A stretch of DNA of 64,000 nucleotides, taken from assembly GCA_964658305.1 (NCBI GenBank), contig OZ210885.1, positions 372,001 through 436,000 on the forward strand. Direction: 5' to 3'. The notes under the pieces were generated by a model. That model searched no databases and was not told where the DNA came from. It saw only the letters and a list, made by a program, of their open reading frames with translations. Below are positions 10,147 to 18,453 of this stretch, one piece after another. The DNA comes from Leptogorgia sarmentosa (taxonomy: Eukaryota). Position numbers and translations under genes: made by a program. Each line of letters starts with the position of its first letter. Position 1 is the first letter of the stretch.

Positions 10147-13100
10147 TCATACATATCTAACCGAACTTGAAGTGTGTTCATCAGTTAATACACAGCATTG
10201 CAATGCATTTGTCACAGGAGCATGATCGGGCTTCGTTACCAGAACACTTTGAAATATTTCTGCTGCTTTATGATCGTTGCCAATTACTTTGTAGGCATAA
10301 CCCAAGACTGAGTGGATTAAAGGATAATTTGGATCGGACTTGAACACAGAACAGAGATCATCCATCTTACAAACAATTTCTTTAGCCCTTTCGTTATCGT
10401 TCAACTTTTTATATGCAGATGCTGTTAAAAAGCTGACATAAATCTTTATTGGAAGAAAAATTTCTTTTCTTGCTTCGATTTCCTGAGCAAGATAAGCACC
10501 GACCAAAGGTATGTCTTCTTTGCCAAACTTTATCGTCGATTCATGAGATTGCTGAAGAACGTTCTCCAAATGAACGATAGCTTCATCGTACTCTTCTAGT
10601 CGGTATAGAAGCGCAGCAAACGTTGTTTCCACAAACGGAACAGGGTTACTCTCTGATTGAAAATAGTTTTCGAAACATTTTTTGGCCTTCGCCATCCACA
10701 TGAAATACGATGTTTTGTCGTCTGCTAATGACGTACAAGCCTTGGTCTGGTAAAGCTCCGCTAGTGTTCCCACTAAGTCATGACCATGTTCGGGATTGGT
10801 AGTCAAGTTTTCAACACAATGCTCGTAAACCTTTATAGCCCCGTTAACATATCCAGCTCTACAGAGAAGAATTCCTAAAGATCGGTACAGGAAAAATGGA
10901 CCAGCAAAATCGCACGTTTGAAGAATGATCTGTTGTTCTTCAAACGATGCTTTCAAAATCTCTTTCTGAGATTCAAGCAGCTCAAGGAAAGAGATGTAAT
11001 ATGAATACACATCCTCCGGTTTCCCCAACAACACCGATGCATTGCCTGAAAGTCGCAAACAGTCGAGTTTCTTTTGAACCAAGTCCATGTTTAGAGGAAG
11101 TCCACTTTCCGTCGCACCGACAGACACCAATGTTTTTCTGCAGTATTTTAAAGCAAGATCATATTCGCCCATTTTGTAGTAGACTTCTGCAAGACTTTCA
11201 TCCGTAAGAGGAAAGTTGGAATCTTCAAAATGCAAGCCATCTTTCTTTTCCAAAAAGGAAACCAACTCTTTCTGGCAATAAGCGTGAAAGTACGGGACAA
11301 AGGAAGGTCTGTTTAGAAAAACGCCAACGTCGTGACCTTGTTTTGACAGTTTTTCAAATGTTTCCACCGCTTCTTTTTTCATACCAGCCTGAAGAAAAAC
11401 GCGCAAAACCGTACTGTAAGCAACACAACCTACACTTGTAAGAAGTTCGCCGTGATCTGCTAGATAACTGCGCATGGGCTCTTGTTCACGTGAAGAGTAC
11501 TCGTATATCACCATCATTTCCCATATCTCATCTCCAACTTCAAATATCTCGTTGGCAATCTCAGTAGCTTCTTCGTAACGGTTTTCTTCACTTAGCATCT
11601 GCAAATATTTAACTTTCCTGACAAGTGTAGGGATTGTGTCTGTTTCCTGCCTGACTTGGTAATATTTTTCAGCTAAACGACGCTCATCTGTTGCCTTTTC
11701 GCCACTACTTTTAAGTGCCAGTTTCTGATGGCAATTTCCTAGGAACAGTAAAACCTGCGAACTGCTGTTTCGTTGTTCATCTTGTAAACACTCAGCTATC
11801 GGTAACATAATTTCGTAGACGACAATCGCTTCGTCAGTTCGCTCGTTTCCACGATAACACCTCGCCAACTTTTCGAGAAATATCAGAAGTTTTTTAACAT
11901 CACAGTGTTCCTCTAAGAACGCTTCTTTGCAGAATTGAACAGTTTGGAGAAAAGGCCGAATTTCTTTTTCGCTGGGCACTTTTTTAGTTGCTGTGAATGC
12001 ATCAAGTACGTCAAGAAAATTTTCATCATCAAAACTAGCTTCGTCATAGTCAGACAAGAACAACAAAATTGACTTTTTAAGTGAACCAATCGCGCGCTCA
12101 ATACTGCCAGACAAAACTTGACCACGGCCAATCCAGGAAAAAATGCGTCGACAGACTTTCGATAAGCCAGTGTTATCTTCTGGCCAGGTTTCTTCAGAAA
12201 ATGTCTGAACAACGACAGAAATATTTTCAAGAAATTCGCACATTCCATTCATCATATCATCAGCTTCTTTCTTTCTTGCGAGTTTCAAAAATGATGTCGC
12301 CAGCAAAAGTTTAATTTCACATTTCAAAGTGAAGAGTTTTCCTCGCACATCTCCAGTAAGCTCATCTAACAGATCACTTGGCCCCAATTTTTTTTCAGCA
12401 ATTTCGATCACGCTCATTGCTCGTTGACAATAGGATGCCACATTTTCAAAAGTTGTATTAGTAATTTGCCTTGTCATCTTTGCTTCTTTCATCCGACAAA
12501 TTGCAGCCAAATACAAAAACTCTGCCTCATATCGATGCTTCAATATACCACACTCCGAACTGGGTATAAATGCGATTGCTTTCTCACAGACACCGCTTGC
12601 TTCCTCCAAATCTTTGCAACACATGTGGCTCCTGATCAGTCCTAACAACGTCTCTAAATATTCCACGACACTGTTGGCATCACTGTGACAGGAGTAATAA
12701 GCAGCAGCTTTACTAAACTGGATTGTTGCCATCTTATACTTTCCACTATGAAAGTGAGATTCGGCCATTAATTTGGCTATTTCTGCCTTCTTCTTGTCAT
12801 CAGATGTAAGCTGAGCAGATAGGTTTAAATACGAAGGCATGAGGTCCATTTCTTTTTCTTGCTTGCACTGACGAGCTTTCTCGATAAAAAAGTCTGCTGA
12901 ATTAGGAGAGTTCTTGCTAAGAAATGGCACCACCGAACTGTATAAGGATTCACTCGTCTCGTTTGCCTGTCTGATGTTGCCTGAGTAAAGATCATGTTTC
13001 ACTGAATCACCCAGCACGTTTATGGCTGACGTAATGGAGGAGAAATGTTGAAGTAAATCGGTATCAGGAGTTGGTTGCTCATTTGTCGTTCCTTCTTCAC

Positions 13101-16100: not shown

Positions 16101-18453
16101 CACGATCGGTCAGCCGGTAAATTTCTTTTTTAACGTCATACAATTTTCCATCTTCGTATTGGTGGCGTCCTGTGATTAATTCTTCATAGCGGAAAACATC
16201 TTTTCGAAGTGTGTTCATGCCACGACACTGTCCTTGACTGACGGTTGTTGTGTGCTGGCAACGATCGCCTGTGCAAGGCTTACACAATTCGTTATTCACA
16301 GCGATTTGATATTCATTGAGCAAAGCTTGGTCTTCAGATTGAAGAGATCCAACAGTTAACAGAATCTCCGCTAAGCGAGGGTTTTTTTCGTGCATTTCCG
16401 TTGTTTGAAATTCCGCCATTGTGGTTGGGGAGTGGATAAGTTCAAAGTCTTGCATATTTCCTAACGGTGTCTTGCAGGCATCAGGGAGAAAACCATCAAA
16501 AGAGATTCCTCTCGGAGTAACATCGTCAAAAAACCAATCTCCGCTAAGCACGTCAATACCCATAGCGGGTAAAATTGTCTCTCCCAGATTTATGATCTGT
16601 TAACGAAACAAATTAGAATATGCCTTGTGACTCAATCACCCTGCAAAATAAGACCTAGGAGAGGCCAAAGAACGTACTCTTCCTTGATCAAATTCAGGGG
16701 AGGGGGGTACAGCGCCGATAATTGTTAGTGGGGGGATAAATTATTCATTCATTCATGTTCACATATTTTGAAAACAATCTGTTCGGGAAGAAATTTGGCG
16801 CAGACCACGAACAGATGAAAATTCTCCCTGCAATTATTGACGATAGTTCTGCCACAGCTGGATATTTTTTTTAGAATTTGACTTAATCTAAGCGGTGACC
16901 ATAATACGGCGGTCCAGTATACTCACAAAAGTACATAGCATGCGAATGATGTCTCTAGCTAATAAAGAATAATTCGTTTAAAAATAGTGAACAAACAAAT
17001 AATGGACAACTTGCCTAAATACTAATTTTTGATCTGATTGGCAGATTTCCTTTAACGCAAGTTGTCCATTAGTTACAAATGGAAATTTTACCCTCGAATG
17101 GTTTCAATCTTAATGTTAACTTTTCAGCTGAATATACATACCTGTAAATGAACCAGGTTTGTTAAATTACGAAAGAAAACCTTGCATTGCTCTTCTTCAG
17201 AACCAATCAAAATCGCCCATTCAATATCTGAGTATGGTGTCATTTCATTTCGTGACAGAGATCCGAGAACCAGAACTTCATATTCGCATGGTGGTTTTCC
17301 AAGAATTTCCAAACACTCTCCAATAATTTGAGAGAAAAGTTGCTTGATTCGTGATGATATCATTTTGCATATTCTTTTAACATCTTCGGTTTGTTTAACA
17401 AAGACATCTCGAAGGCGGTTTTCATTTGTTTCTCCGTTATCATGATTACTTTGCTCCAACGAACTCAACATTTCCTTTACGTCTTCGCGTAGTTGCTTCA
17501 AATAGTTTTTCTTCTCGTCAGGATTAAAAACACAACTATCAAGATTTCCTTCAATATTTGAAACTAGACTGTCCTCAACATCTTTCATTTTCGATGGAAG
17601 TGACTGTGACATCGTTTTCACGCTATCCTTTTCTACTGAATCCAATTTCAAGCAATTCATTACGAAGTTGTATAGTGATGCCGCTTGCAATAAAAGACGT
17701 TGTTTTTTCTCCAATTCCACGTCGTCTCGCTTCGCTTTTTGTTTTAAAACCTCTGCCAAAAAATAGTAAGCCTCAGGGTTGTGTTCAGATCGATGTTCTC
17801 TCAACTTCTCTTGTCGTATCGCTCTTCCAAAAGATTGTTCCGCAATCTGCAACTCGCCATTGTTTAACGCCCGTTTTCCAATCTCGATTAAGGTGAAGCT
17901 GTCAGGCTATGGGGAAAACAAGTAAAGATATTCCATACACAGAGATTTGTCACTGTGGCCTGATTTTAACAATGGGCTCATTCGTCGACATATGGCAATT
18001 ATGTATTTAAAGCCTCGAACCTGTTCATTTCCTTTTTGCGTGCAAAACGTTTTGAAAACAACTTAAGAAAAATCGGCGCATGTGCAGTCCAATCATGGGA
18101 ACCTATGTCAAGGACAACGGAGTACCCTACAGTTCCGAATATACATGTAGTTCGCCAACTTCGCACACGATTATGAGTTAATGGATAAAAAATCACCTAT
18201 ACTGTACGTTCTTCCCAGAGTAATGGCCGCGAAAAGCAGCTTCTCATTAAACCAATCAGCAGTAGCAACCATTTATACCTGTCACTTCTTGACTGGCAAA
18301 ATACACCACAAGGTTTGTGATTCCAACCTAATTAAATTATTCACTTCGCTGCTTCGTGGCTCATTGAATATGAATCTAAGATGTAATCTTAGAATTATTA
18401 GTTTTGATATTGACATTTACCTCTCCAATTTTTCCTTCGTTCTGGCTGAGCAT
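10147..18453 (-). CDS. ~2415-aa protein: N-terminal Pol-beta-fold nucleotidyltransferase (DUF294/GlnD-like) + helical DUF294_C-like domain + long TPR array
   Basis: Three in-frame exons with canonical phase-0 splice sites: 18453-18421 (MLSQNEGKIGE), 17906-17142 and 16596-10147. NTase motif LGSLSRNEMTPYSDIEWAIL. Helical segment YDVKKEIYRL...LDDLYQKGVIS...SLKLRY. Many TPR-like helices (e.g. NYTEALQCYEQALAINP, NYDKAYQCLQRAVSM). Confidence 0.88.

What the first reader, a model, noticed from the sequence alone, without database searches (positions are those of the whole stretch)
10147..18453. Giant TPR protein with an N-terminal bacterial-type (DUF294/GlnD-like) nucleotidyltransferase: candidate animal sensor-enzyme
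Seen: splicing links ORF 17124-17852 to the 2138-aa ORF. The joined protein has GSLSRNEMTPYSDIE (G-S followed by D-x-E, the Pol-beta NTase signature, ~17220-17265), then IINLGETILP...TPRGISFDG...CKTPLG, a DUF294_C-like helical bundle and ~1900 aa of TPR-rich sequence. Established: this fold includes the protein nucleotidylases GlnD/GlnE and the immune second-messenger synthases cGAS/OAS/CD-NTase, and TPR arrays act as ligand sensors. From memory (unverified), similar motifs occur in TPR proteins of environmental chlamydiae and amphioxus. Inference: an uncharacterised ligand-gated NTase (protein NMPylation or nucleotide signalling), possibly exchanged between endosymbionts and animals.
Basis: partly seen in the sequence, partly recalled or inferred. 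Interest (0 to 1): 0.85.

Follow-up and report, generated by a model that had tools for sequence, protein, structure and literature searches.

The report
Coral DrrA-like AMPylase with TPR array
This spliced animal gene, likely from a soft coral, encodes a 2,455-residue protein whose enzyme domain keeps the catalytic residues and is predicted to have the fold of the Legionella protein-tagging enzyme DrrA, so it likely belongs to an unstudied third class of animal enzymes that attach a nucleotide to other proteins, possibly in conflicts with bacteria living inside cells.

Summary
The gene is real and spliced. The start is ATG 19625, not 18453, giving five coding exons and 2,455 aa.

The enzyme domain (aa ~186-585) hits Pfam DUF294. 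A model of an 81%-identical orthologue best matches the whole Legionella DrrA AMPylase domain (Z 27.6), then GlnE (23.8, 21.9); the CD-NTase CdnE scores 4.4. DrrA D110/D112/D249 align with D278/E280/D470; D340 is the likely remaining acid. Nine core residues are intact in 329 of 350 family domains. dN/dS is 0.16-0.18 in the enzyme and 0.29-0.61 in the TPR region.

Named relatives occur in octocorals, amphioxus, Ciona, Owenia and, among bacteria, mostly intracellular lineages. The number and direction of transfers are unresolved (AU p=0.086).

Best reading (0.5): a cytosolic protein nucleotidylase, likely an AMPylase, with a TPR targeting or regulatory arm. Activity, substrate, ligand gating and an immune role are untested. 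Ten literature searches found the chlamydial version (NEX2) but no study of animal members. This scan noted the same family before, in an annelid and a sea squirt.

The parts
22564..22720 (-). 5' untranslated exon (far end approximate)
   Evidence: Loose end of X5/X6 contigs at 19653 matches 22566-22595 exactly; extent inferred from the 155-nt loose end
19580..19651 (-). Coding exon 1; ATG at 19625 (aa 1-15)
   Evidence: Joint 18795/19580 in X4, X5, X6; similar N-terminus in orthologue P0006
18733..18795 (-). Coding exon 2 (aa ~16-37)
   Evidence: Joints; tblastn of P0006 91% identical over 22 aa
18421..18464 (-).
   Evidence: Joints; frame check
17142..17906 (-). Coding exon 4 (aa 52-306): N-terminal helices and first half of the NTase
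17220..17264 (-). Catalytic motif G266-S267-x10-D278-x-E280 (DrrA G98/D110/D112 equivalent)
16597..17141 (-). Phase-0 intron that splits the enzyme domain; same position in related paralogues
   Evidence: 61 of 120 listed hits begin near this point; L051, L052, L057 break at the same position
15760..17504 (-). DrrA/GlnE-type nucleotidyltransferase domain, aa ~186-585 (interrupted by the intron); conserved E312, D340, K348, K462, R467, D470, R519
15781..16245 (-). HEPN-like/DUF294_C helical subdomain (aa ~424-578), no RxxxxH RNase motif
10150..15759 (-). TPR-rich region aa 586-2455, with a low-hydrophobicity stretch at about aa 1400-1500
   Evidence: Pfam TPR hits; model of aa 1756-2455 pLDDT 89.5, top listed Foldseek hits all helical-repeat scaffolds; composition
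10147..16596 (-). Coding exon 5 (aa 307-2455 and stop)

Best explanation
The gene is spliced and encodes a 2,455-aa protein that is likely a cytosolic, active DrrA/GlnE-type enzyme, predicted to transfer a nucleoside monophosphate (most likely AMP) onto a hydroxyl side chain of a target protein, with the TPR array likely choosing the target or switching the enzyme on, probably in defence against or conflict with intracellular microbes. Shown: exon structure, motif, family-wide conservation, purifying selection, family distribution. Predicted: DrrA-like fold (orthologue model); Mg/ATP site from D278, E280, D470 and probably D340, with K462/R467. Inferred: protein substrate (the three best structural matches are protein adenylyl-transfer/removal domains); cytosolic location (no N-terminal hydrophobic stretch); TPR role; immune role.
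For: Profile versus PDB: DrrA E=1.7e-10 in two stretches covering both subdomains; next unrelated entry E=0.35. Fold of orthologue P0006 domain (pLDDT 88.6): DrrA Z 27.6, rmsd 3.4 over 303 residues; GlnE-N 23.8; GlnE-C 21.9; best entry outside DrrA/GlnE 8.2. Foldseek's 4 hits at E<=0.001 are all GlnE or DrrA. The HMM alignment, offset +12 to the numbering in PMC7815794, puts DrrA D110/D112/K241/R246/D249 on D278/E280/K462/R467/D470; D249 is named as Mg-coordinating in PMC8097203 section 2.1. Nine core residues intact in 329 of 350 near-complete domains: 14/14 octocoral clade, 153/154 Branchiostoma, 44/48 bacterial; 290/307 without the motif-selected loci. dN/dS 0.16-0.18 for the enzyme, 0.29-0.61 for TPR/linker blocks. 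15 of 24 bacterial assemblies are named to intracellular families or genera, none to a free-living one. The chlamydial NEX2 family (F-box/OTU-DUF294-TPR) was proposed to act inside host cells (PMC4209131). Many paralogues in amphioxus; two sets of 7 hits share one longest-contig length each, suggesting clusters.
Against: No activity, substrate or induction data. Identity to DrrA is only 17%. The motif is DxE where DrrA has DxD. The third acid (DrrA D150) could not be aligned directly; D340 is inferred. D470 is conserved in the octocoral clade (14/14) and most bacteria (34/48) but not among the three commonest residues in Branchiostoma. GlnE-N, an AMP remover, ranks first in Foldseek. Conservation counts come from top-scoring hits, which favours intact domains. 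TPR dN/dS is below 1, so positive selection is not shown. Only one copy lies in this 64-kb window. The GTDB scan needed exact short motifs, and the nearest ESM Atlas cluster is mostly bacterial with Gemmatimonadota commonest among 5 assigned members, so free-living relatives may exist. The fold model is of an orthologue, not the window's own joined protein.
Confidence: 0.5

Rival explanations
1. It is an eraser: like the N-terminal domain of GlnE, it removes AMP from proteins, for example undoing modifications made by bacterial effectors.
For: GlnE-N (1v4a) ranks first in Foldseek (E 9.1e-9) and second by Z (23.8). Writer and remover share the fold (PMC8097203 Box 1).
Against: DrrA is closer by sequence and by Z. 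Endosymbiont members with F-box/OTU and TPR look like effectors.
Confidence: 0.12
2. It makes a nucleotide signal or oligonucleotide, or drains NTPs, after the TPR array senses a ligand (cGAS/CD-NTase-like logic on a different scaffold).
For: Enzyme plus variable repeat array with lineage expansions resembles immune receptors (inference). One amphioxus model carries a Death domain. The Pol-beta superfamily includes such synthases (established knowledge).
Against: CdnE Z 4.4 and HalB Z 6.0 versus DrrA 27.6. No Mab-21 hit.
Confidence: 0.15
3. It is a protein NMPylase, domesticated for a housekeeping or developmental role unrelated to microbes.
For: Overall purifying selection, an orthologue 69% identical over full length, present in all three spliced runs laid, one copy in the window.
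Against: Patchy distribution among named animals; large expansions, with 2-3 enzyme domains in 23 of 58 motif-bearing proteins.
Confidence: 0.13
4. It modifies RNA or a small molecule (like tRNA-, aminoglycoside- or MNT-type NTases).
For: Weak matches to ANT enzymes (Z 7.0-7.4) and HEPN proteins (Z up to 8.2); HEPN-like domains can bind RNA (PMC3710099 passages).
Against: These scores are far below DrrA/GlnE and lie in the range common for helical bundles.
Confidence: 0.06
5. It is an inactive decoy or scaffold that mimics bacterial effectors.
For: DxE instead of DxD; no activity data.
Against: Core residues intact in 14 of 14 octocoral-clade domains; enzyme dN/dS 0.16-0.18.
Confidence: 0.04

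Closest known systems
DrrA/SidM adenylyltransferase domain (Legionella; PDB 6yx5, 3nku, 3l0i; Pfam SidM_N)
   Same: Whole two-part domain superposes (Z 27.6, 303 residues); G-S-x10-D-x-D/E motif and K241/R246/D249 equivalents.
   Different: 17% identity; DxE; no DrrA GEF or lipid-binding domain found; TPR array instead; host-encoded and spliced; substrate unknown.
GlnE (GS adenylyltransferase, 1v4a/3k7d) and GlnD
   Same: Same NTase plus inactive HEPN-like helical domain (Z 23.8 and 21.9); a bacterial member gives weak GlnD hits far below the cut-off.
   Different: Single domain on a TPR scaffold; no NCBIfam GlnD/GlnE match for the window's exons. The UniRef label 'Protein-PII uridylyltransferase N-terminal domain' on amphioxus members is a database name, not a test.
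Neochlamydia NEX2 family (F-box, optional OTU, DUF294, TPR; PMC4209131)
   Same: DUF294 followed by TPRs; Parachlamydiaceae proteins are found as homologues.
   Different: No F-box or OTU here; NEX2 sequences themselves were not compared; that family was not assayed in the passages read.
cGAS/cGLR, OAS, CD-NTase
   Same: Pol-beta superfamily; cytosolic enzyme with possible immune role.
   Different: Fold far more distant (CdnE Z 4.4); no Mab-21 hit.
Metazoan AMPylases FICD and SelO
   Same: Would write the same modification; FICD also uses TPRs for substrate specificity (PMC8065156, title and abstract start only).
   Different: Unrelated catalytic folds; the 2021 review names only these two metazoan classes (PMC8097203 abstract).

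Membership tests
Pol-beta nucleotidyltransferase superfamily | G-S-x(9-13)-D/E-x-D/E motif | tested here: met
   G266 S267 D278 E280; 99% conserved in 350 domains
Pol-beta nucleotidyltransferase superfamily | Third acidic residue on a neighbouring strand | tested here: inconclusive
GlnE/GlnD/DUF294/DrrA clade | NTase core followed by a HEPN-like helical domain | tested here: met
   Z 27.6/23.8/21.9 over the whole domain; DUF294 in 11 of 11, DUF294_C in 6 of 11
DrrA/SidM (orthologue sense) | Full adenylyltransferase domain with D110/D112/D249 equivalents | tested here: met
   SidM_N 25.3 bits on exon 4 alone (cut-off 27), 28 bits on the orthologue domain
DrrA/SidM (orthologue sense) | GEF and PI4P-binding domains | tested here: not met
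   No such Pfam hit; aa 1756-2455 fold as a helical solenoid; aa 586-1755 tested by Pfam only
DrrA/SidM (orthologue sense) | AMPylates Rab1 Tyr77 | not testable with these tools
   Needs an assay
GlnD / GlnE enzymes | Full-length GlnD or GlnE architecture (curated model above cut-off) | tested here: not met
   No such NCBIfam hit for window exons or P0006
Bacterial CBS/cNMP-DUF294 proteins | CBS or cNMP-binding domains (architecture recalled) | tested here: not met
   None in Pfam scan
cGAS/cGLR (Mab-21) | Mab-21 Pfam domain | tested here: not met
   No hit at E<=0.1
cGAS/OAS/CD-NTase | cGAS/CD-NTase fold | tested here: inconclusive
   CdnE listed at Z 4.4, rmsd 5.8; cGAS and OAS not among the 50 rows shown
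Neochlamydia NEX2 | DUF294 followed by TPR array | tested here: met
Neochlamydia NEX2 | N-terminal F-box (often OTU) | tested here: not met
   No hit on exon 4 or 5; exons 1-3 add only 51 aa and were not scanned separately; NEX2 sequences not compared
Active HEPN RNases | RxxxxH motif | tested here: not met
   R519 is followed by L524; H is not among the four commonest residues at that column

The most novel reading that the evidence does not exclude
Octocorals and bilaterians (amphioxus, tunicates, annelids) separately captured a DrrA-type AMPylating effector from intracellular bacteria and expanded it into a TPR-guided immune enzyme family: a third class of animal AMPylases that turns an effector chemistry back on microbes or on hijacked host GTPases.
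Probability: 0.25. Interest if true: 0.85.

Novelty: new variant of a known kind. Interest (0 to 1): 0.62.

Why it matters
A 2021 review lists only Fic and SelO enzymes as animal AMPylases and treats DrrA/GlnE-type writers as bacterial. An expressed, conserved, expanded animal family with the DrrA fold would add a third class. It would also give a tractable handle on a large uncharacterised family (1,365 clusters at E<=1e-30) shared with amoebal and invertebrate endosymbionts, and would bear on coral host-microbe interactions. The domain is compact and directly assayable. An intron inside the catalytic domain helps explain why single-exon gene calls label octocoral-type members only as TPR proteins.

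Tried and rejected
No whole genome is held, so copy number in the host was not counted. No RNA holder is listed by record; contigs give no expression level. Viral collections gave nothing: none of 165 pattern matches in IMG/VR was a relative; BFVD had 0 hits at E<=0.001. The PDB search with alignment A2 was swamped by TPR columns. A3 did not align the DrrA D150 region. Allelic differences: 24 non-synonymous and 19 synonymous codons among 44 sites taken from the printed tables; 80 and 94 further rows were hidden, so I draw no selection claim. DrrA's allosteric Rab-binding residues R70/Q71 align with K239/Q240, but Q240 is common only in the octocoral clade (12/14); too weak to name a Rab substrate. 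The mixture-model tree returned no answer, so trees use LG+G4 or FastTree. No outgroup was available, so no root or donor. Bacterial contamination was rejected: GT..AG introns are spliced and the neighbours are animal-type genes. Complex prediction was not run: no candidate substrate. Literature searches found no paper on the animal members; DUF294+amphioxus and DUF294+AMPylation returned 0 papers. Supplements of PMC4209131, PMC3710099 and PMC8195603 were not opened and could list such proteins; subscription journals are not covered.
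Full report
Observation. The minus strand holds a 2,150-codon ORF (10147-16599) and a 260-codon ORF (17124-17906). Six public runs hold the stretch; none is on record as RNA. Contigs of X5 and X6 join 16596/17142, 17906/18421, 18464/18733 (listed as 18462/18731, cut +2) and 18795/19580, all GT..AG. 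X4 shows the same joints (tables 5 and 8). X1-X3 run into or across the introns. X4-X6 are three samples of one study, so this is one study's evidence. The gene therefore has five coding exons from ATG 19625 and encodes 2,455 aa. A further 5' exon lies at about 22564 and above. There is no N-terminal hydrophobic stretch; the highest 19-residue hydropathy is 1.86 at aa 809.

Domain anatomy. Exon 4 hits DUF294 (E 1.2e-9) and SidM_N (1.1e-5, below cut-off); exon 5 gives TPR families only at significant E-values. Exon 4 alone finds only DrrA in the PDB (2 sequences, E 0.003). An 11-sequence domain profile finds DrrA at 1.7e-10 in two stretches, the catalytic core and the helical subdomain. I folded the domain of P0006 (81% identical over 401 columns) with 73 sequences: pLDDT 88.6, pTM 0.90. 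Among 48,161 chains the best were DrrA 6yx5 (Z 27.6, rmsd 3.4, 303 aligned, 17% identity), GlnE N-terminal (23.8) and GlnE C-terminal (21.9). HEPN proteins reached 8.2, aminoglycoside NTases 7.4, HalB 6.0 and CdnE 4.4. Foldseek ranks GlnE-N first (9.1e-9) and DrrA second (2.1e-8). The window's last 700 aa fold as a helical solenoid (pLDDT 89.5) whose top listed matches are TPR-type scaffolds with query-normalised TM at most 0.31. Residues 586-1755 were not folded.

Active site. With the +12 offset fixed by G98/D110/D112 (PMC7815794 passages), the alignment places DrrA D110, D112, K241, R246 and D249 on D278, E280, K462, R467 and D470. D249 and D150 are named as Mg-coordinating in PMC8097203 section 2.1. 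D150 could not be aligned; D340 is my inferred equivalent, with E312 as the alternative. Of 464 domain hits in 393 sequences, 350 were near complete, and 329 of these keep all of G266, S267, D278, E280, E312, D340, K462, R467 and R519 (three pairs of rows are duplicates; the set favours high scorers). D470 is kept in 14/14 of the octocoral clade and 34/48 bacterial domains, but Branchiostoma mostly has S or T. The helical subdomain lacks the HEPN RNase motif, as tabulated for GlnD/GlnE/DUF294_C in PMC3710099 (passages). Against two orthologous contigs, dN/dS is 0.16-0.18 in the enzyme and 0.29-0.61 in TPR/linker blocks up to aa 1750: purifying selection throughout, looser on the repeats.

Family. 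Searches gave 322 of 1,684 candidates (one listed), 828 of 7,992 (one listed) and 1,365 clusters at E<=1e-30 (150 listed). Named animals are Paramuricea, Dendronephthya, Xenia, Branchiostoma (most rows), Ciona and Owenia; many rows are unnamed. 23 of 58 motif-bearing proteins have two or three enzyme motifs. Two sets of seven hits share a longest-contig length, which suggests clusters (inference). 61 of 120 listed hits start near the intron inside the enzyme domain, and three paralogue contigs break at that position. A motif-limited GTDB scan gave 45 loci in 24 assemblies by record title. Fifteen are named to Holosporaceae, Parachlamydiaceae, Rhabdochlamydiaceae, Amoebophilaceae, Midichloriaceae or Rickettsiaceae, which are intracellular lineages (established knowledge); nine are named only at higher rank or not at all. 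One assembly holds 8 loci. Of 20 bacterial ORFs scanned, 18 have TPR hits. Against exclusivity, the nearest ESM Atlas cluster (score 0.91) is mostly bacterial with Gemmatimonadota commonest among five assigned members.

Phylogeny. In a 44-row tree (61 rows minus 9 unnamed and 8 near-duplicates; LG+G4) the window sits in a clade of 9 (100/100) whose named members are octocorals. Branchiostoma, Ciona and Owenia form a separate clade (98/95), and the backbone is unresolved. Animals formed one side of a branch in 0 of 200 bootstrap trees, but the AU test does not reject a single animal clade (p 0.086). Host identity as an octocoral is therefore likely, not shown. One or several acquisitions, and the direction, remain open.

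Mechanism. The three best structural matches all add or remove AMP on proteins, and the catalytic residues are under strong constraint. So the most likely activity is Mg-dependent NMP transfer, probably AMP, to a protein hydroxyl in the cytosol (inferred). The TPR arm likely selects the substrate or regulates the enzyme; DrrA itself needs allosteric activation (PMC7815794), and FICD uses TPRs for specificity (PMC8065156, listing only). An immune or symbiosis role is inferred from the patchy distribution, the expansions and the sharing with intracellular bacteria. I put the whole reading at 0.5. Rivals: nucleotide signal 0.15, housekeeping NMPylase 0.13, eraser 0.12, RNA or small molecule 0.06, decoy 0.04.

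Novelty. The bacterial architecture is in print as Neochlamydia NEX2 (PMC4209131, passages). PMC8097203 (abstract, passages, section 2.1) lists only Fic and SelO in animals. Passages of PMC3482391 and PMC8195603 did not describe this family. Ten searches found no study of the animal members; supplements were not read. Two earlier AI notes of this scan describe the same family in an annelid and a sea squirt, as intronless genes. I reached my reading before seeing them; they are not independent support, and I did not test the intronless claim. Verdict: a real, expressed gene; a new animal variant of the DrrA/GlnE enzyme kind, not a DrrA orthologue and not a Mab-21 cGLR; interest 0.62.

Noticed in passing
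window 17255: The window has Ser269 in the motif; runs X3, X5 and X6 carry the family-typical Ala. Many other alleles differ, e.g. 55 differences in 3,964 nt in one X6 contig.
   Followed up: partly
window 49840-52020 (-): Ankyrin-repeat ORF directly upstream of a kinase ORF; the kinase looks IRE1/RNase L-like (recalled); no KEN domain hit in that ORF.
   Followed up: no
window 31745-33076 and 34601-36022 (+): Two near-identical single-ORF LRR proteins with hydrophobic N- and C-terminal ends.
   Followed up: no
window 26271-30541 (-): Reverse transcriptase, RVT_3 and tyrosine integrase ORFs: likely a DIRS-type retrotransposon.
   Followed up: no
window 40009-44448 (+): Uninterrupted 1,479-codon ORF with no Pfam hit at E<=0.1 and a multi-pass hydrophobic C-terminus by eye.
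   Followed up: no
window 5894-6484 (-), 7104-7361 (-): ORF with a weak Toxin_10 hit (E 0.008, below cut-off) and a similar-looking upstream exon; possible pore-forming protein. Units of about 1.67 kb repeat at 645-4734.
   Followed up: no
window 23157-24022 (-): SAM methyltransferase-like exons (motif recalled), spliced 23482/23800 in X4 and X5, just upstream of the gene's 5' exon.
   Followed up: no
window 47725-49493 and 61059-61526 (-): BTB_2 and TLDc exons in at least two copies.
   Followed up: no
window 22566-22595 (-): The 5' exon holds a short upstream ORF (8 codons, read by hand) out of frame with the main start.
   Followed up: no
P0241, P0125, P0126, P0200: Amphioxus gene models join the enzyme domain to Death, CUB/LDLa/tectonin, peptidase M28 or a PGRP-named protein; may be real fusions or model errors.
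   Followed up: partly
L005:3657-6434: A Rhabdochlamydiaceae member has an N-terminal methyltransferase domain and no TPR hit.
   Followed up: no
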